Shown here: piece by piece, positions 44,206 through 52,149 of the stretch
How positions within the stretch are numbered: the stretch's first letter is position 1
Layout: every line of letters begins with the position of its first letter
NCBI GenBank assembly: GCA_022813865.1
Contig: JALDZX010000084.1
Location: 1 to 63,333 of the forward strand
Length of the DNA: 63,333 bases
Reading direction: 5' to 3'
Source of the DNA: Xylographa opegraphella
Taxonomy: Eukaryota
Position numbers and translations under genes: made by a program
Notes under the pieces: model-generated
Database searches by the model: none
What the model was told of the DNA's origin: nothing
What the model saw: only the letters and a program-made list of their open reading frames with translations

Positions 44206-46780
44206 ATGCGTATCGACGCGGTGTGGGCTGGGTTCATTTACTTCCTGGACATCATCACGTTTCAGTCACCAAAACATGACGCTGTCGAGCAGGCTCCTGT
44301 CCTTGGTGATGCTCACTTCGAAGAGCTGCCCCCTGGCCCTATCTTTACGCCGCCAAGTGCAGATCTTGGAGATAAGATCGAATGTGACTATACGAAGATG
44401 ATTGGGTGGAAGGCTTGCTCATCGGAGACCGATCGTGGATGCTGGTTGAAAGGTCCGAAAGGGGAATATTTTGGCATTAATACGAATTATGAATTGTTTG
44501 TACCAACGGGTATTAATCGTCAGGTACTCCTCTCTCTGATAGCTTTTTACCACTGTTTCTGAACCCTGCGACTAGTACTATCTCGAAGTTACAGACGAAG
44601 AAGGTGCGCTAGATGGCGTTCTCAATACCGGTCTGAAGCTGTTCAACAAGCAATATCCTGGGCCGTGGATACGTACGTGTGTATCTCGTGGTAGTTAATT
44701 GCAATACTGATGTTGGTGTAGAAGCATGTTGGGGAGATACTCTAGGTTGTTTACAACTCGAGGTCTGGTTTCGGAAGCTTCTTACATTCGGTAGAGATTA
44801 CGGTTAAGAACAAGCTTAAGAAGAATGGAACAACAGTACACTGGCATGGTCTACGTCAGTTGGATACGACGGATATGGATGGCGTCAATGGTAAGTATCG
44901 GCCTTTTTCTGCACTTGCCAAGACCCATCCATGTACTTTTTATTGTCGTCCCCTATATTGTCCGAGGCGGGTGGGTGTCAAAACGCTCTGAAACTGCGCT
45001 GATAGCCTGAAAGGAGTCACGCAGTGCCCGATTGCAGTAAGGCCAGTTGTATCCGTGGGGAAGCCCTTCTAACGGTATAGCCTGGCCAAAGCTTTACATA
45101 TAAATTTCGAGCAATGCAATACGGATCTTCATGGTAGGTGGGCATCGGAAACCATAGGGGGAATACCATTACTAAAACCTTCTAGGTACCACAGTCATTA
45201 CTCGCTACAGGTACGTTTTATAAAGGGCCTATTCAGTCAAAGACTCATTGCATGCTGATTACAACACCTAGTATGGGGATGGCATGTTGTAAGCTGTCAC
45301 TAGAAGCTTATTTTGAAGGATGTTTAGAAGGCTGACTGGATCAGGGGCCCGATGACTATCCATGGACCGTCCTCTGCCTCTTATGATGATGCGAGGGCCC
45401 CCATTCTGATGACCGACTGGCTACACAGAAGCGCGTTCGACATCTGGTCTGAAAGTATTCACTATGGTACATCTTTCAGAATGGACAACATACTAGTAAA
45501 CGGAAAAGGATTACCGCCACCGAACACTCCCGCCGAGTCTATCAAAGGAAACCCGGAGAGATATAGCCTAGTGTTTGAAACTGTAAGAAATGACCTAGCA
45601 TGGACGAAGTTGTTGTCGTGCTGATGTTCTCTACAGGGAAAGCGATACTTGCTGCGCCTGATCAATACGTCGGTAGATACTGCTTTCATCTTTGCCATCG
45701 ACAACCATACAATGGAACTAGTTGGAGCCGATTTTGTGCCTATTCATGCTAATGAAACCGACCATGTTGTTGTTGGAATCGGTAAGCCCATCAACATACG
45801 CTGGCTTCGAGGTGTAGACTTAATTTCGAAGGGCAACGTTATCATGTCATCGTTCAGGCGAAAGACAGAGCGGACCATCCCGCTACAGACGGGAATTACT
45901 GGCTCCGTACTTGGCCGGCAAAAGGATGCGGAAGGTACAGAGATGCCCCGTCTGAGAAGACAGGGGTGGTTCGGTATAATTCATCAAGCACGAGCGACCC
46001 CACCACGCAGAACAGAAACTACTCTCTGAAATGCCGTGATCAGGATTATAATACACTGCGACCTATCCTAGAATGGCAAGTAGGACCACCTGGGAATTTA
46101 GGTAGGTCAATCAGCCAAGCGTGTACCACGGCCCCTGACCGTCTTCAATAGCCAAGAATAGTTACTTCGAGGTCGGCCTAGACCCTACCAGCGGGAAACC
46201 TTTCTACCCGGAAGACAAGCAGCTCAACCGCTGGAACATGTTCACCGACACTATGTGGCTCGACTTCTCCAGCCCCACATTGGCCAACATCAACAAGTCG
46301 TGCTCCAGCTGGGACAAGAACTTCGTCGTCATCACCGAGAACCAGAAGCCGGACACGTGGATCTACCTCCTCGTCTCCGGCACCGGCATCCCCCGCACCG
46401 GGCGCTTCTTCCCTCCCGCCGCGCACCCCATCCATCTGCACGGGCACGACTTCGCCATCCTCGAGCAGTCCGAGAAGCCGTACCAGATCGGCGTGCTGAA
46501 CCTCAAGCTGGACAATCCGCCACGGAGGGACGTCGCCCTGCTGCCCGCGGACGGCTACCTCGTGCTGGCGTTCAAGTCGGACAATCCGGGCGCTTGGCTC
46601 ATGCACTGCCATATCGCGTGGCACGCTTCCGGCGGGCTGGCGCTGCAGATTTTAGAGAATGAGGCGCAGATTAGGATGAGTGAGCAGCAGAAGAGGGACT
46701 TGAAGAATACGTGTGACGATTGGAAGCTTTGGAGGGCGAGGGCAGGAGTGGGTTTTGAGCAGGATGATTCCGGGATTTGA
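44206..46780 (+). CDS. Laccase / multicopper oxidase (AA1, ascomycete type)
   Basis: 12 exons: 44206-44523, 44576-44672, 44722-44745, 44795-44890, 45014-45036, 45081-45133, 45186-45210, 45272-45288, 45345-45582, 45637-45781, 45832-46101, 46152-46780. Copper motifs [24 protein letters not shown]. Axial Leu and C-terminal DSGI plug. Confidence 0.93.
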
Positions 46781-46936
46781 GGGGGGGTGGGATTGGNNNN
46801 NNNNNNNNNNNNNNNGGGGGGTATTGGTTATGTACTTTTGGTGCTGTGGAGAGGTGGTTTGTGTATGTGTTTTTTTCTGGCTCGGGTACTGTATCTTACA
46901 TGACAACTGTGTTGTGCTATTTCTGTTTCTACCAAC

Positions 46937-47264
46937 TGTGTTGTGCCAAATGTGGTGTGCCAAATGTGGTGTGCCAAATGTGGTGTGCCAAATGTGGTGT
47001 GCCAAATGTGGTGTGCCAANNNNNNNNNNNNNNNNNNNNNNNNNNNNNNNNNNNNNNNNNNNNNNNNNNNNNNNNNNNNNNNNNNNNNNNNNNNNNNNNN
47101 NNNNNNNNNNNNNNNNNNNNNNNNNNNNNNNNNNNNNNNNNNNNNNNNNNNNNNNNNNNNNNNNNNNNNNNNNNNNNNNNNNNNNNNNTGTGGTGTGCCA
47201 ATTGTGGTGTGCCAATTGTGGTGTGCCAATTGTGGTGTGCCAATTGTGGTGTGCCAATTATGGT
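46937..47264. repeat. 14-bp tandem repeat (TGTGGTGTGCCAAW)n spanning an assembly gap
   Basis: About 6 copies of TGTGGTGTGCCAAA left of the N-run and about 5 copies of TGTGGTGTGCCAAT right of it. Confidence 0.93.
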
Positions 47265-48460
47265 AAACAACGTATCGGCCAAGTACCAGAGGGCTATCTC
47301 CAGCTCAAGTACACCGTTTTCTAGCTTTCCCATGCGACGATACGTGATCTGGAATTCAAGATCGGCAGCAAGGCACGCAAGGGTGGTACTCGCATCCCTA
47401 AATCGAATGGATTCCTTCGTGAATGTAACATTTGTGACGATCAACGGCTCGAGTTTGGTGAACCTAGCTGTAGATATCCATAACTACTGCCACGTTATCT
47501 GCTCATTCACGAAGTCGGGGCATTAATCTTTTGTGCTTTGCCATAGGCTGCCCGGATGCTGATGACCGCGATGGTTACGGAATAGGAATCATCTGGGTTT
47601 CTTCCCGGTTGGAGAGATCGTCCCACTCGCCATCCAGCAACACCGGTCTTCACACCACACCCTGAATCTCTGGAGGCAGCGCTCAGATGCACGACCAAGT
47701 CCCTTGCCCCGTCAAGAACCCCCCACCATCGCTCCTTCCCACAGGCCCAATCCCAAAACACCCCTCCCCCCTACGCACCACCCATCAACAAAACCCCCCC
47801 CCCAGCGTCTTCGCACAGCGCTGCATATTCAACGCAGCCTGCGCCTCCTCATTCTCGCACGGCTTCATCAGATGCACGCTGCCGAGCGAGCAGCCCATCT
47901 CCGCGAACCGCAGTCGCCGCCGCTGTGGGCCGCCTGCCGGCACTGCAGCCAGGCCGCAACGCCGTCGGCGCTCATCCCCGACGGCGGCGGCTGGCTGACG
48001 CCTTGGCAGCCACCGCTGTTGCCCGGTGGGGGGGTTTGGTGCTGGGTTTCTTGCCGCCGCCGGCGCCGGCGCCTTTGGGGAGGGGGAGGGGCAGGGAGGC
48101 GGGGTTGGGTGGGGAGTGGAGGTTCAGATTAACAGGGGAAAGGAGGGGTTGGTGAGAGTACGAAAGATGTGCAGGAGTGAGTATGCAAGGGTTGAGAGTA
48201 AGAAAGCAGCAATCTTTTGTCGGGGGCGTTGGCGAACCATTAAGTCGGGGAGGTGCTCGCGCTGTTTGTATCGACGTGGTATACAGCTTGCAACATAGCT
48301 CGGTAGCAGAAGATGATCAGTGATATATTTCAGAATATGTTATTCACATCTTGAAGCAGTTAGGTATATACATTATCCAGTACATATGAAGCCCTCCCCC
48401 TATTTCCAGGACGAAGAATGACTACCTCGCCAGCGATCCGCAGCAGCGAGACAGCGTAAA

Positions 48461-49387
48461 CTACGAGCTCTTCTTACCGCTCACGCTGGTACTGACCGGC
48501 TTGACGGCAGCAGTGCTACTCTGCGGAACCGTGGCCGTACTGCTGCCACCACTCGCCGAGCTGCCGCCATTCTGGCTGGCGACTGTGGCCTGCACTACCT
48601 GACCCGCAGTGTTGAACACGATGTTGACGAGGGCGTTGAGCGGCGAGTACGAGTATGTCTTCTGCGTGAGGCCGTTCTGGAGAGTCTGGGTCGCCCCGGT
48701 GAAGGTCATGTTGGTGAGGTAGTTACCCACGATGCTGCTGACCGGGCTGCCGTTGGCGCCGACGACCTGCTGCACGATGTTGCCCAGGTTGTCTACCAAG
48801 AAAGATAGCGTCGTTCCGCCCTGCACGACCGAGCCAAGCAGGCCGTCGACGGCGCCGACGATGGGGGCTAGGGCACTGGTCACGTTGTTGAGGGTGTTGA
48901 TGAGCAGGGGGTTGAGGTCGAGCGAGGAGAAGACGCGGTTGACGATGTCGACGAGGTGGCCGAGGCGGACGATCAGCTCGAGTTCGGCTTGGACGTCGAC
49001 GATGGTGAGGTTGATTTTCTGGACGGAGAGCGCGACGCCGGCGTTGATGGTCACCAGGCTGGCGACGTTGGCGTTGAGGTTGATGTCGGCTTGCAGGTTG
49101 TCCACGTCGAGTTCGATACGGCCGACGGAGAGGTTGGGCACGTTGAGCAGGACATCGGGAGGAGTGGATGAGGATGCGGCGGAGGTGGGCGTGGTTGGTG
49201 TGGACGTAGCAGAAGTGGTCGCCGCCGTGGGAAATACGCTTAGGGTAGATGTAGGCGCGACGGTGGAAGATCTCACAGGGGCGGTTGGCGATGCTGCTGG
49301 AGCGGTGGATGTTGCTGAAAAGACAGGCGCTGCGAAGGTGAGGATGAAGCAAGTGAGAAAGACGCGGAGAACCAGGCGGGAAGACAT
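48461..49387 (-). CDS. Secreted protein of unknown function (paralog A of the divergent pair)
   Basis: Intronless 308-aa ORF with GC-rich third positions. Signal peptide, S/T/P-rich linker, core PDVLLNVPNLSVGRIELDVDNL...NAGV...RLGHLVDIVNRVFSSLDLNP. No Cys in the mature protein. Confidence 0.88.
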   Translation of the reverse strand: MSSRLVLRVFLTCFILTFAAPVFSATSTAPAASPTAPVRSSTVAPTSTLSVFPTAATTSATSTPTTPTSAASSSTPPDVLLNVPNLSVGRIELDVDNLQADINLNANVASLVTINAGVALSVQKINLTIVDVQAELELIVRLGHLVDIVNRVFSSLDLNPLLINTLNNVTSALAPIVGAVDGLLGSVVQGGTTLSFLVDNLGNIVQQVVGANGSPVSSIVGNYLTNMTFTGATQTLQNGLTQKTYSYSPLNALVNIVFNTAGQVVQATVASQNGGSSASGGSSTATVPQSSTAAVKPVSTSVSGKKSS

Positions 49388-49897
49388 CGTGGCGGAAAAG
49401 ACAGGATAGCTGCGAGGAGCGACAGCAAAGCAGTAAGATACACGAAGAGAAAGATGCGAAGTGGAGAAAGAACGTTGAAAAGCAACGCTTCAAAAGAGGG
49501 GAGACTCGACTTCACGGTATGGTATAACTTGATTTCTGGATTAATTTCCCGCGATAATTTCCACTCAGGGGCTGAGGAGGTCGCTGACGTGAGATATTCA
49601 ACGGTCTTGCAGTCTTTTTAAGCTTATTTCTCCAGGTTTGTCCGCTTCGGGACAGCTTTAAATTGCGATTATCCCGCGAGCCGGGATCTTCAACTCCTGA
49701 ACGGTGGACTTGCAGGCCTGCGAGCGCACGTTCCGTGGTTGTTCCTGTTTCGCATCCATATTGTGACGATGAGCTGCCACTCCTTGGATCTTTTCATGTC
49801 ATCCTCTCTTCTTTTCTCGTCTCTCGCCCACCACAAAGACTCGCCACTTGTTTTCTGTGTATCTACTGTTTTATAGCCATCGTTCATTTGCATCGCC

Positions 49898-50785
49898 ATG
49901 TTGCTATCCAGTCTCTACAGCCATGCCTGTCTTTTCCTCCTCATCGCTCCCTTCGTCAGCGCGCAGTCGTCCGATGACTCCGGCTACGTGGGCTACAACC
50001 TCTCCATGAGTGGCGACCCAGATTCGGTCATATATTCGACCTCCTCCACGCCCGCCGATGTCTCGACTACAGTTCCCCAGCCTGATGTCTACTTGAACGC
50101 TTCCGTGAGCGTGGGCGAGATCGATATCACCGTAGCGAATCTCACCGCCAAAATCAACCTGCAAGCGCAGGTGCTCCAGCTGCTCCAATTCAACGCCGGC
50201 GTCGATTTGTCCATTGACCGTGTGGCGCTGAAGATCCAGAATGTCAGCGCAAAGGTCTTGCTCGAGGCCAGGTTGGAAAACCTCGTGCTGATGATCAACG
50301 ATACCCTCAATTCCCTTGACTTGAACCCAATCATAGCAACGCTTGGCCAGGACGTTGGCACCATCGTCAACGAAACGGTCGGCGGACTCACTGGCAGCAC
50401 TTCGCAGTCCAGTGCAATGGTCCCGCGGTCCTTCGAGTTGGCCAACAATATTCTCTACTCCATTAACGACTACAGTGGAAACACGCATACCAACCGGATC
50501 CTAACTCAGAGCGGCAACATTATCGAACAGTCCTTAAACAATGATGGACAGATCTCCGGCCAGCAAGTCGTTGGCACCTATCTGGGCGACATGACCTTCA
50601 ATGGTTACAGCCAGAGCGTGGTCAGGGATGGCCAGACGTTGAAAGAGATGGAGTACGTCTACACACCTATCAATGGGGTGAGCATTGTCAGTGCCGTCTA
50701 TGTCGACGAGGCCGATGCTGTGGTAGCGACGCAGGTGTTGAGTGAGAGTAGCGCAGGAGGAAGCAGCACAGTTGGCGACTTATAG
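49898..50785 (+). CDS. Secreted protein of unknown function (paralog B of the divergent pair)
   Basis: Intronless 295-aa ORF. Signal peptide, core PDVYLNASVSVGEIDITVANL...NAGV...RLENLVLMINDTLNSLDLNP, six N-glycosylation sequons. No Cys in the mature protein. Confidence 0.88.
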   Translation: MLLSSLYSHACLFLLIAPFVSAQSSDDSGYVGYNLSMSGDPDSVIYSTSSTPADVSTTVPQPDVYLNASVSVGEIDITVANLTAKINLQAQVLQLLQFNAGVDLSIDRVALKIQNVSAKVLLEARLENLVLMINDTLNSLDLNPIIATLGQDVGTIVNETVGGLTGSTSQSSAMVPRSFELANNILYSINDYSGNTHTNRILTQSGNIIEQSLNNDGQISGQQVVGTYLGDMTFNGYSQSVVRDGQTLKEMEYVYTPINGVSIVSAVYVDEADAVVATQVLSESSAGGSSTVGDL

Positions 50786-52149
50786 GAAGTGGCCATAGGT
50801 CCTGTTCTGCGATTACACCATTGATGGTAGTGAGGGGTAAGAGAGAGGCGATCTGCAGGCTTACAGAGTAATTGGGCTTCTATTTCTCGAGAATCACAAT
50901 ATACCCGAAGTGGTTCTACAGATGGTAGTCAAAATACATACCCTCGTCTGTAAGACAAATCTTGTGTCCTTCAGTGTTTGTGCTTTAGCGAGTCCTTCCA
51001 ACCTGTTCGATTAACAAGGAAAGCTGACAGCCTTCCGTTCGCAACGTTTCCAAACGCTACCCATTAGCAGCTTGAAAGTGTTGATTTGTCATTTATCCTC
51101 TGTTTACTGCTGAGATTTCTATCCGGTAACAAGTGTAAAGAGCTTTTCATCGTTGGTACTTCCTATTCCTACCCTGGTCCAGAGTACGGCCGACAGTTTC
51201 TTCTCAGTGGCACTCCGGACGATGAACTCCCTCGCCTGTTTTACTGTTGTGTCCAGTCATCGTCTAACTTACAGAATTTGAATTGGGACAGCATTGTCCT
51301 TCAGAAGACTTAAGTCCAAAGGAAATGACAACAGAACAAAAACTGTGTGTATGCTATCGGCTCGCTTGGCGGTCCGGATTATTTCCGACCAAAAAGCAAT
51401 TAACTGGAATAGGAATGGTATGTGACAACTTCTCGCTACTGCAAACCATCCTTGTTTGGGCATAGCGCATTCGGATTTGCCGAACACAAGTCTGGTAGCT
51501 CGAACCGCTGCGTTTCATCTGTTCGTGCTCCAGTAACATGTCCATCATGCAGCATGTCCGAGAACGCCCCTCGGAGGCCGGCTCTGTCAAGTGCCTTCTA
51601 TGAGGGCTAGCTCACAAGCTTGCTTGTATCTCTGGTGCTTTAAGCCTTGTGGCTTTGCAGATCACCGCGCAATCGAAGCTCAAGGGCTGTACTCGAGCCG
51701 TGTGATTGTCGCCGGCGCAATGCGAGTGCTTGATCGGTGTGCGCTCCTGTAAAGTTCAGGAAGGGGCGTGTTTCGGCTCGTGGCTTGCTGGTTTGTGTTA
51801 TGTGGACAAGTATGCCTTACTCTGTACGGAGCTCAGGCATGAGACAAATGAGCAGATCAGCACCACATCCCTTCCAGGCTCCAACAAGCTGGATGTCACC
51901 GCTACCCAAAGCTGGGGGTCATACGGTTCCAGCACAGAGATCCAACGATGAAGATCGCTATCGCCGCCTTCGAGCTTTTGGGTGTGCGACACGGTGCTGG
52001 TATTGGTGGCTGCAAGGCTGGGCCGATTGGTTCTTGGACATGTCCACGGTCCCGCCTCAAACATGCCGGAGCTTGAGGTTTCGGTCATAATCCCAGTACT
52101 GAACGGCTCCATGAGAGCTTCATCTGATACTTGTTGCAAACGACTATTT

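What the first reader, a model, noticed from the sequence alone, without database searches (positions are those of the whole stretch)
48461..50785. Head-to-head pair of diverged paralogous secreted proteins: candidate two-component extracellular system
Seen: two intronless genes share a 510-bp divergent promoter. Both encode signal-peptide, Cys-free proteins of about 300 aa that align over nearly the whole mature length despite deep divergence. Matching segments: PDVLLNV/PDVYLNA, SVGRIELDVDNL.A.INL/SVGEIDITVANL.A.INL, NAGVALS/NAGVDLS, RLGHLV/RLENLV, SLDLNP/SLDLNP, GNIVQQ/GNIIEQ, VGNYLTNMTF/VGTYLGDMTF, YSYSPLN/YVYTPIN, SASGGSST/SSAGGSST. The roughly 85-aa core (49159-48908 and 50081-50329) is a long run of alternating hydrophobic/polar residues, implying amphipathic beta-strands, capped by an amphipathic helix. 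I cannot assign a characterised family. Inference: long retention of divergent A/B paralogs on one promoter suggests an obligate heteromer, such as a bi-component pore former, a surface-active filament or sheet protein, or a lipid carrier.
Basis: partly seen in the sequence, partly recalled or inferred. Interest (0 to 1): 0.85.

Follow-up and report, generated by a model that had tools for sequence, protein, structure and literature searches.

The report
Ancient head-to-head secreted paralog pair
Two back-to-back genes in a lichen-forming fungus encode related secreted proteins of an unnamed family, and this pairing is kept across four classes of filamentous ascomycetes, which suggests the two proteins work together outside the cell, although their function is still unknown.

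Summary
Window 48461-49387 (-) and 49898-50785 (+) are two intact ORFs, A (308 aa) and B (295 aa), separated by 510 bp. They are 34% identical (E 7e-28). Nearest relatives are Xylographa species, which are lichen fungi.

A and B form two separate, well-supported clades, each 60-75% conserved across four Pezizomycotina classes. In all 45 of 45 fungal metagenome loci with at least 1500 nt upstream of B, an A-type gene lies head-to-head. No flanking gene of the window is conserved in those loci.

Neither protein matches Pfam, NCBIfam, PDB sequences or a known fold. A deep-alignment AlphaFold2 model of A (pLDDT 84) shows two domains:
- an N-domain made of an internally duplicated 34-residue beta-hairpin unit plus helices;
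- an eight-strand C-domain whose bacterial counterparts match the RHS/YD repeat.

The family also occurs, patchily and as single copies, in soil bacteria.

Best reading: a co-regulated, co-functioning pair of glycosylated extracellular proteins, possibly a hetero-oligomer. Binding, expression and function remain untested. Pore-former and lipid-carrier readings have little support.

The parts
48461..49387 (-). Gene A, 308 aa, intact ORF including stop
   Evidence: 1005 homologues at E<=1e-3; A clade 28/28 rows, support 95
49316..49387 (-). A residues 1-24, putative signal peptide (holds the only Cys)
   Evidence: read from the sequence; no predictor run
49160..49315 (-). A residues 25-76, Ser/Thr/Pro/Ala-rich linker (S 23%, T 29%, P 15%, A 21%), not conserved among orthologues
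48887..49159 (-). A residues 77-167, conserved N-domain: four beta strands (79-96, 99-106, 114-121, 124-140) and two helices (143-158, 161-167)
   Evidence: AlphaFold2 with a 103-sequence alignment, pLDDT mostly 82-94 here
49046..49135 (-). A residues 85-114, first copy of the internal 34-residue repeat
   Evidence: hhalign of repeat 1 against repeat 2: probability 95.7, E 9.4e-9, score 34.2; 0 of 30 column shuffles exceeded 13.2
48944..49033 (-). A residues 119-148, second copy of the internal repeat
48581..48841 (-). A residues 183-269, C-domain of eight beta strands (two four-strand meanders), pLDDT 93-98
   Evidence: the homologous region of bacterial relatives P0346 and P0390 passes Pfam's cut-off for RHS_repeat
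48464..48580 (-). A residues 270-308, Ser/Gly-rich tail with no hydrophobic C-terminus
49388..49897 (.). 510-bp shared intergenic region, presumed bidirectional promoter
   Evidence: ATG-to-ATG spacers are 380-1177 bp in 40 related loci
49542..49561 (+). Two copies of TAATTTC(C), a weakly recurrent intergenic motif
   Evidence: present in 11 of 28 dereplicated spacers, 10 in the same orientation; not significant family-wise
49898..50785 (+). Gene B, 295 aa, intact ORF including stop
   Evidence: 1155 homologues at E<=1e-3; B clade 23/23 rows, support 100
49898..49963 (+). B residues 1-22, putative signal peptide (holds the only Cys)
   Evidence: read from the sequence
49964..50080 (+). B residues 23-61, B-specific conserved Tyr/Gly/Ser segment (Y30, Y33, T48 invariant in 40 orthologues); A has a non-conserved linker here
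50081..50350 (+). B residues 62-151, N-domain homologous to A residues 77-167
   Evidence: the B model from a shallow alignment was not confident here
50438..50749 (+). B residues 181-284, C-domain of eight beta strands, pLDDT 73-93

Best explanation
A and B are two intact, divergently transcribed genes. They descend from an old duplication within an unnamed protein family that is also found in soil bacteria.

Each protein has four parts: (1) a signal peptide; (2) a variable N-terminal segment, which is a Ser/Thr/Pro/Ala-rich stalk in A and a conserved Tyr/Gly-rich segment in B; (3) an N-domain of about 90 residues built from an internally duplicated 34-residue beta-hairpin unit plus two helices; (4) a C-domain of eight strands made of YD/RHS-like hairpins.

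I think both proteins are made from the shared 510-bp promoter, pass through the secretory pathway, and are N-glycosylated (and O-glycosylated on A's stalk). I think they act together outside the cell, at the wall or extracellular matrix. The most likely arrangement is a hetero-oligomer in which the hairpin domains bind each other and the YD-like domains bind a polymer.

Shown here: both genes are real and paralogous; A and B form two clades; the head-to-head pairing is conserved while the flanks are not; sequons are conserved; the mature proteins are Cys-free.
Predicted: the two-domain fold.
Inferred: secretion, glycosylation, co-expression, wall or matrix location, physical association, polymer binding.
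For: Paralogy: 34% identity, E 7e-28.

Two clades: A 28/28 rows (support 95) and B 23/23 rows (support 100) in a 103-row tree.

Pairing: 45 of 45 fungal metagenome loci with at least 1500 nt upstream of B have an A-type gene on the opposite strand upstream. The figure is 55 of 58 at 1000 nt or more; the 3 misses have under 1250 nt upstream. No A-type gene lies anywhere else. About 27 of these loci are distinct after dereplication.

Annotated species: A and B carry consecutive NCBI locus tags in 10 of 10 species where both are named with serial tags. These span Lecanoromycetes, Dothideomycetes and Leotiomycetes. By my hand count, 36 contig lengths are shared between the two top-120 lists.

Flanks: of all ORFs of 70 aa or more in window 40-60 kb, only A and B, and frames overlapping them, have matches in the 80 loci. 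The linkage of the pair has therefore outlived the surrounding synteny.

Secretory route: sequons are invariant or nearly so (B: N67 40/40, N81 40/40, N115 36/40; A: N126 40/40, N226 40/40, N168 38/40). The mature parts are Cys-free and there is no hydrophobic C-terminus.

Selection: each protein is 60-75% identical across classes.

Precedent: divergently transcribed secreted pairs in Fusarium oxysporum (Avr2/SIX5, SIX8/PSL1) interact physically (passages read in PMC10942635).
Against: Bacterial relatives are single-copy. None of 80 loci has a second member within 6 kb, and 5 of 5 genomes gave one match each. The fold therefore does not need a paralogous partner.

Mature A folds confidently on its own in the model (pLDDT 84).

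A shared promoter alone could keep two independently acting paralogues adjacent.

There is no expression, localisation or binding evidence for any family member. The 'cell wall protein' names on two orthologues and one Atlas cluster are automatic labels.

Signal peptides and glycosylation are read from the sequence, not measured.

The metagenome loci were found with B-type patterns, so A genes without B would have been missed.
Confidence: 0.5

Rival explanations
1. Co-regulated but independent paralogues. After duplication, A and B took on different extracellular tasks, for example a wall-tethered and a soluble form. They stay adjacent only because they share one bidirectional promoter. No physical complex forms.
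For: Bacterial homologues act as single copies. A alone is modelled with high confidence. A and B differ in their N-terminal segments: a non-conserved S/T/P/A stalk in A against a conserved Tyr/Gly segment in B. They also differ in net charge: A has 12 acidic and 9 basic residues, B has 29 and 9.
Against: Pairing in 45 of 45 loci while the flanks are not conserved is stronger linkage than most co-regulated fungal neighbours keep. Both partners are similarly constrained.
Confidence: 0.3
2. Bi-component membrane-active or pore-forming pair. The long amphipathic hairpins of A and B would insert together into a target membrane.
For: The N-domain has strands of 17-18 residues with alternating polarity. 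Head-to-head gene pairs are known for fungal two-component cytolysins; this is recalled, not tested here.
Against: No Pfam match to any pore-former family. The only pore structure in the Foldseek list (lysenin pore, 5ec5) has probability 0.05. Invariant N-glycosylation sequons lie inside the long strands (A N126, B N81). The pair is 60-75% conserved across lichens, saprobes, aquatic hyphomycetes and black yeasts, unlike the patchy, fast-evolving toxin families. A also carries wall-protein-like S/T-rich stalks.
Confidence: 0.05
3. Carrier or binder of a hydrophobic ligand. The sheet-plus-helix N-domain would enclose a lipid, as in LolA-like or lipocalin-like proteins.
For: Foldseek lists LolA chains (9azz_B, 9c89) at probability 0.92-0.95.
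Against: Those matches have E 0.09-0.14 and TM 0.23-0.28 over 112 columns. No match has E<=0.001 or Z>=8 in any of five fold searches.
Confidence: 0.05
4. Oligomeric propeller-like lectin. The two blade-like four-strand meanders of each C-domain would combine between chains into a closed beta-propeller that binds sugars.
For: The best structural matches are single propeller blades (Z 6-7.3, 40-50 residues). Foldseek lists the fungal and bacterial propeller lectins AFL, AOL, PHL and PLL at probability 0.72-0.82. The B profile at residues 181-201 matches designed Kelch-type repeat proteins.
Against: Alignments cover only one meander at a time, and the few that span both align at most 54 residues. 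The two meanders are therefore probably not placed like neighbouring blades. The PDB sequence hits have 0 stretches that pass on their own. All Z values are below the level the tool calls meaningful.
Confidence: 0.07

Closest known systems
RHS/YD-repeat proteins (Pfam PF05593, TIGR01643; bacterial Rhs and Tc toxin shells, teneurins)
   Same: The C-domain is a run of beta hairpins. In bacterial relatives its last hairpins pass Pfam's RHS_repeat cut-off (P0346 26.8 bits, P0390 23.5 bits, cut-off 22; 5 of 30 relatives at E<=0.1). A and B keep a Y-x-Y...N/G motif at the same place.
   Different: A and B themselves give no RHS_repeat match at E<=1. They have only about four hairpins in proteins of about 300 aa. 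They lack the Rhs core, a toxin tip and an enclosing shell. They carry an unrelated N-domain.
Divergently transcribed secreted effector pairs of Fusarium oxysporum (Avr2/SIX5, SIX8/PSL1)
   Same: Adjacent head-to-head genes with a common promoter encode secreted proteins that function together and bind each other (passages of PMC10942635).
   Different: Those partners are unrelated in fold, Cys-containing, lineage-specific and host-directed. A and B are paralogues, Cys-free and conserved across classes and lifestyles. Binding of A to B is not shown.
Ss-Rhs1 of Sclerotinia sclerotiorum (SS1G_07404), a secreted 'Rhs repeat' protein needed for sclerotia and infection
   Same: A fungal secreted protein of similar size (282 aa) with YD-type repeats.
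   Different: Its mature sequence, printed in supplementary file 1 of PMC4039746, consists of YDAxGNEID-type repeats and Lys-rich spacers. It has no PDV...SLDLNP N-domain, so it is not an orthologue. I compared it by eye only. The original paper was not held.
Ser/Thr-rich fungal cell-wall mannoproteins
   Same: Signal peptide, long S/T/P-rich stretches in A, and several conserved N-glycosylation sequons. Automatic names on some orthologues read 'cell wall protein'.
   Different: There is no GPI-type hydrophobic C-terminus. No PIR or other known wall-linkage Pfam domain passes its cut-off; the only row was PIR2-like_helical at E 0.16, 12.6 bits against a cut-off of 27. Wall location is not measured.
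Two-component fungal cytolysins (aegerolysin with MACPF partner; recalled, not searched)
   Same: Two secreted proteins from adjacent genes that act only together.
   Different: Those partners are not paralogues. No sequence or fold match was found here.

Membership tests
RHS/YD repeat family (PF05593) | Sequence match to the RHS_repeat/YD profile | tested here: not met
   A and B have no match at E<=1. Only bacterial relatives match: 5 of 30 at E<=0.1, and 2 above the cut-off.
RHS/YD repeat family (PF05593) | Long array of repeats forming a shell, with Rhs core and C-terminal toxin or other cargo | tested here: not met
   The proteins are 295 and 308 aa with eight strands in the C-domain. No longer fused forms were found, which is weak evidence.
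Known pore-forming toxin families (aerolysin, leukocidin, MACPF, aegerolysin) | Pfam domain or fold of the family | tested here: inconclusive
   No Pfam match. Fold searches found nothing convincing, and the N-domain was barely tested because the C-domain filled the lists.
Hydrophobins / cerato-platanins (surface-active fungal proteins) | Conserved cysteine pattern (8 or 4 Cys) | tested here: not met
   The mature proteins are Cys-free in the window and in 39/40 A and 38/40 B orthologues. No Pfam match.
GPI-anchored fungal wall proteins | Hydrophobic C-terminal GPI signal | tested here: not met
   The hydrophobic fraction of the last 20 residues has a median of 0.25 (A) and 0.30 (B). The window proteins end in ...SGKKSS and ...STVGDL. 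No GPI predictor was run.
Ss-Rhs1 orthologues | Collinear similarity to SS1G_07404 | tested here: not met
   The sequence in the supplement of PMC4039746 lacks the N-domain and has a different make-up. The comparison was by eye, with no alignment run.
Interacting divergent secreted-protein pairs | Shared promoter, head-to-head orientation | tested here: met
   510-bp spacer. Pairing in 45 of 45 loci. Spacers of 380-1177 bp.
Interacting divergent secreted-protein pairs | Co-expression | not testable with these tools
   No RNA run was listed for this DNA and no whole genome is held.
Interacting divergent secreted-protein pairs | Physical interaction of the two products | tested here: inconclusive
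   One complex job was run and returned no verdict.
Beta-propeller lectins built from two-blade subunits | Neighbouring blades arranged as in a propeller | tested here: inconclusive
   Matches cover single blades only, Z 5-7.3.

The most novel reading that the evidence does not exclude
A and B are the two subunits of an obligate hetero-oligomeric extracellular scaffold. This would be a previously unrecognised structural component of the wall or matrix of filamentous ascomycetes. It would be built from a new hairpin-repeat domain plus YD-like hairpins. The family would have been shared with, and perhaps acquired from, soil bacteria before it duplicated in an early Pezizomycotina ancestor.
Probability: 0.2. 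Interest if true: 0.75.

Novelty: new variant of a known kind. Interest (0 to 1): 0.55.

Why it matters
Secreted fungal proteins usually evolve fast and are lineage-specific. Here, two Cys-free secreted paralogues stay 60-75% identical and locked head-to-head across at least four classes of Pezizomycotina, yet have no family name, known fold or known function. That marks them as a likely core part of the extracellular biology of these fungi, which include lichen symbionts, rock-inhabiting black fungi and many Helotiales.

The work also defines a new domain, an internally duplicated 34-residue hairpin unit, that is shared between fungi and several bacterial phyla. It gives a clean, testable case for asking whether long-kept divergent paralogue pairs mean hetero-oligomers.

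Tried and rejected
- **Complex prediction of A (72-282) with B (56-292):** no verdict, score 0.02. It was run by ESMFold2 without my alignments. It counts neither for nor against binding.
- **Expression:** no RNA holder was listed for window 48300-50950. Only one DNA run holds the stretch, possibly the source sample.
- **Whole genome of the window:** not held.
- **Earlier findings of this scan:** none.
- **PDB sequence searches:** only designed Kelch-type 'SAKe' proteins matched the B profile, at positions 181-201. The whole-sequence E was 1.6e-9, but 0 stretches passed alone, so I treat it as a summed repeat-motif match. Nothing real was found for A.
- **Fold searches:** Foldseek against PDB had no match at E<=0.001 for either model. 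VIA-align gave a best Z of 6.5, 6.8 and 7.3, always one four-strand meander of 40-50 residues.
- **ESM Atlas:** for B, only unnamed or 'cell wall protein family' clusters. For the N-domain of A against named clusters, no usable hit.
- **NCBIfam:** nothing above any cut-off.
- **Longer fused forms of the N-domain:** none among 312 candidates, which is weak evidence.
- **Bacterial gene neighbourhoods in five loci:** no shared neighbour.
- **Promoter motif search in 28 dereplicated spacers:** the top 7-mers and 8-mers did not exceed the maximum seen in 100 shuffles. TAATTTC (11 of 28, expected 2.0) is kept only as a passing note.
- **GC3:** A 0.79 and B 0.72. This is high, but other window genes are equally high, so it says nothing clear about expression.
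- **Literature:** searches found no paper on this family, on six orthologue locus tags, or on six peptide motifs.
- **Ss-Rhs1 lead (recalled):** rejected after reading its sequence in a supplement. The original paper was not held.
Full report
**Observation.** A is 48461..49387 on the minus strand (308 aa). B is 49898..50785 on the plus strand (295 aa). A 510-bp spacer separates their start codons.

BLASTP of A against B gives 34% identity over 284 columns, E 7e-28. Both N-termini read as signal peptides; this is my reading, with no predictor run. Each signal peptide contains the protein's only cysteine, so 'Cys-free' holds for the mature proteins. The same is true in 39 of 40 A orthologues and 38 of 40 B orthologues.

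**Source organism and homologues.** The nearest homologues are annotated hypothetical proteins of Xylographa species: 82-88% identity for A and 86-91% for B. Xylographa is a genus of Lecanoromycetes.

Both proteins have about a thousand homologues at E<=1e-3 in the 90%-clustered collection: 1155 for B and 1005 for A. A has 1025 clusters in the 50%-clustered library.

Orthologues at 60-75% identity come from four classes:
- Lecanoromycetes;
- Dothideomycetes, for example Cryomyces minteri;
- Leotiomycetes, for example Hyphodiscus hymeniophilus;
- Chaetothyriales within Eurotiomycetes, for example Fonsecaea erecta.

No Sordariomycetes or Eurotiales names were among the 120 rows shown for each search. 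That is not evidence of absence.

**No known family.** Pfam gives no match for B at E<=1. For A it gives one row far below its cut-off, PIR2-like_helical at E 0.16, 12.6 bits against 27. NCBIfam gives nothing. PDB sequence searches give nothing convincing. A few orthologues and one Atlas cluster carry the automatic label 'cell wall protein'.

**Two clades that stay paired.** I built a FastTree tree of 103 sequences: 28 A-type, 23 B-type and 52 other family members. The A rows form one clade (support 95) and the B rows another (support 100). Both are nested inside the wider family.

A scan of metagenome contigs seeded with B-type patterns returned 80 fungal loci. tblastn with A and B showed the following:
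- All 45 loci with at least 1500 nt upstream of B carry an A-type gene upstream on the opposite strand.
- With at least 1000 nt upstream, the count is 55 of 58. The three misses have only 1028-1244 nt of upstream sequence.
- No A-type gene was seen in any other position or orientation.

The loci are not all independent. Spacers with both start codons were recovered for 40 loci. These reduce to 27 distinct spacers plus the window, and ATG-to-ATG distances are 380-1177 bp.

Independent support comes from annotated genomes. A and B carry consecutive NCBI locus tags in all 10 species where both appear with serial tags. These are four Xylographa species, Lambiella, Trapelia, Icmadophila, Cryomyces, Hyphodiscus, and a record labelled Bifiguratus adelaidae.

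Of all ORFs of at least 70 aa in window 40-60 kb, only A and B, and frames overlapping them, have matches in the 80 loci. The pair has therefore stayed together while its surroundings changed. One limit applies: because the scan was seeded with B, A genes without a B partner would not have been found.

**Architecture.** AlphaFold2 on B with 40 close orthologues was confident only for residues 181-284, which form eight strands; overall pLDDT was 55.

With a 103-sequence alignment spanning A, B and the distant members, mature A (residues 72-282) reached pLDDT 84.1 and pTM 0.48. That model shows:
- an N-domain with long strands at 79-96 and 124-140, short strands at 99-106 and 114-121, and helices at 143-158 and 161-167;
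- a poorly modelled linker;
- a C-domain of eight strands at 183-269 with pLDDT 93-98.

The N-domain is an internal duplication. Profile-profile alignment of A residues 84-119 against 118-153 gives probability 95.7, E 9.4e-9 and score 34.2. Thirty column-shuffled controls reached at most 13.2.

The C-domain matches only single propeller-blade-like meanders of 40-50 residues, with Z up to 7.3 and no match at Z>=8. No Foldseek hit had E<=0.001. I could not fold the N-domain by itself, so 'no known fold' is not established for it.

Invariant N-glycosylation sequons support passage through the secretory pathway: B N67 and N81 in 40/40; A N126 and N226 in 40/40 and N168 in 38/40. A carries a non-conserved stalk at residues 25-76 (S+T+P+A = 88%) and a Ser-rich tail. 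In the equivalent position, B has a conserved segment with invariant Y30, Y33 and T48. Neither protein has a hydrophobic C-terminus.

**The family also occurs in bacteria.** Many of the 'other' members looked bacterial. A scan of one genome per prokaryotic species found 314 stretches that encode relatives. The best 80 are mostly Acidobacteriota (Pyrinomonadaceae, Blastocatellia). The rest come from Armatimonadota, Gemmatimonadales, Sphingobacteriaceae and Ramlibacter, including the cultured R. alkalitolerans.

Copy number and distribution in bacteria:
- The gene is single-copy. None of 80 loci has a second member within 6 kb, and five genomes from five lineages gave one match each.
- It is patchy. 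It was found in 21 of 61 genomes sampled from the family of G001 (20 of 60 without the unpublished G022) and in 2 of 41 from the genus of G002.
- Neighbouring genes are not conserved.

In bacterial relatives the last hairpins of the C-domain match Pfam RHS_repeat: 5 of 30 at E<=0.1, with P0346 and P0390 above the cut-off. The C-domain is therefore best described as a short YD/RHS-like hairpin array.

**Mechanism.** I commit to a co-regulated, co-functioning pair of glycosylated extracellular proteins, most likely wall- or matrix-associated and probably hetero-oligomeric (confidence 0.5 for the package, lower for the physical complex alone). Four observations drive this:
- the extreme persistence of the head-to-head arrangement;
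- similar, strong constraint on both partners;
- clade-specific conserved features;
- the precedent of divergent secreted pairs that bind each other in Fusarium oxysporum (passages of PMC10942635).

Against a physical complex, bacterial members work alone and A models well alone.

The main rival is two independent paralogues held together by a shared promoter (0.3). I rate four other readings low:
- Pore former: 0.05.
- Lipid carrier: 0.05.
- Propeller lectin: 0.07.
- Chance or non-genes: excluded.

**Comparison with known systems, and novelty.** The genes are annotated in public genomes only as hypothetical proteins. I found no paper on the family; the searches returned only listings and nothing relevant.

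A recalled lead, the secreted 'Rhs repeat' virulence protein Ss-Rhs1 of Sclerotinia (282 aa), is a different protein. Its mature sequence, printed in supplementary file 1 of PMC4039746, consists only of YD-type repeats and Lys-rich spacers and has no N-domain. The original paper was not held.

What is new here:
- the definition of the family and its duplicated hairpin domain;
- its spread across fungi and bacteria;
- the deep conservation of the A/B gene pair.

What remains open is everything functional: expression, location, binding and phenotype.

Noticed in passing
window 46932-47264: A 14-bp minisatellite (unit CCAAATGTGGTGTG, at least 6.3 + 5.4 copies) interrupted by a run of 169 N at 47020-47188. 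A second run of 19 N lies at 46797-46815. The array probably caused an assembly gap between gene A and the multicopper-oxidase fragment.
   Followed up: partly
window 46139-46780 (+): An ORF fragment matches the Pfam multicopper oxidase domain Cu-oxidase_2 (E 2.2e-30). It lies tail-to-tail with gene A, and this neighbour is not conserved in related loci.
   Followed up: partly
window 49542-49561 and spacers of L002, L011, L028, L035, L038, L039, L040, L044, L046: TAATTTC(C) recurs in 11 of 28 dereplicated A-B spacers (shuffle mean 2.0). It is in the same orientation relative to B in 10 of them, and occurs twice in the window. It is not significant family-wise. It could be a shared regulatory site.
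   Followed up: partly
proteins P0028 and P0172 (records labelled Bifiguratus adelaidae, BZG36_05548/9): An assembly labelled as a Mucoromycota fungus holds an adjacent A/B pair 69% (B) and 84% (A) identical to the window's proteins, on a 21-kb contig. The B gene model is fused to a proline-racemase-type domain, PF05544. This looks like ascomycete contamination or a transfer, plus a merged gene model.
   Followed up: no
loci L081, L112, L142, L159, L160 (genomes G001-G005): Bacterial family members from five different lineages (Acidobacteriota, Armatimonadota, Ramlibacter, Sphingobacteriaceae, Gemmatimonadales) are each 54-70% identical to one query, yet the gene is patchy within groups: 21 of 61 and 2 of 41. 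This suggests horizontal spread among soil bacteria.
   Followed up: partly
window 48732-49409 (+) and 49904-50488 (-): Long open frames (225 and 194 aa) run antisense to A and B and also 'match' related loci. They are most simply mirror frames of the conserved genes, not genes themselves.
   Followed up: no
window 2734-38411: The rest of the window carries ordinary fungal housekeeping and metabolic genes: BOP1/Erb1, Sas10/Utp3, Dis3L2-type RNase, Rad10/Ercc1, a DUF4202 protein, an alpha/beta hydrolase, a P450 and fumarylacetoacetase. Nothing suggests a gene cluster linked to the pair.
   Followed up: partly
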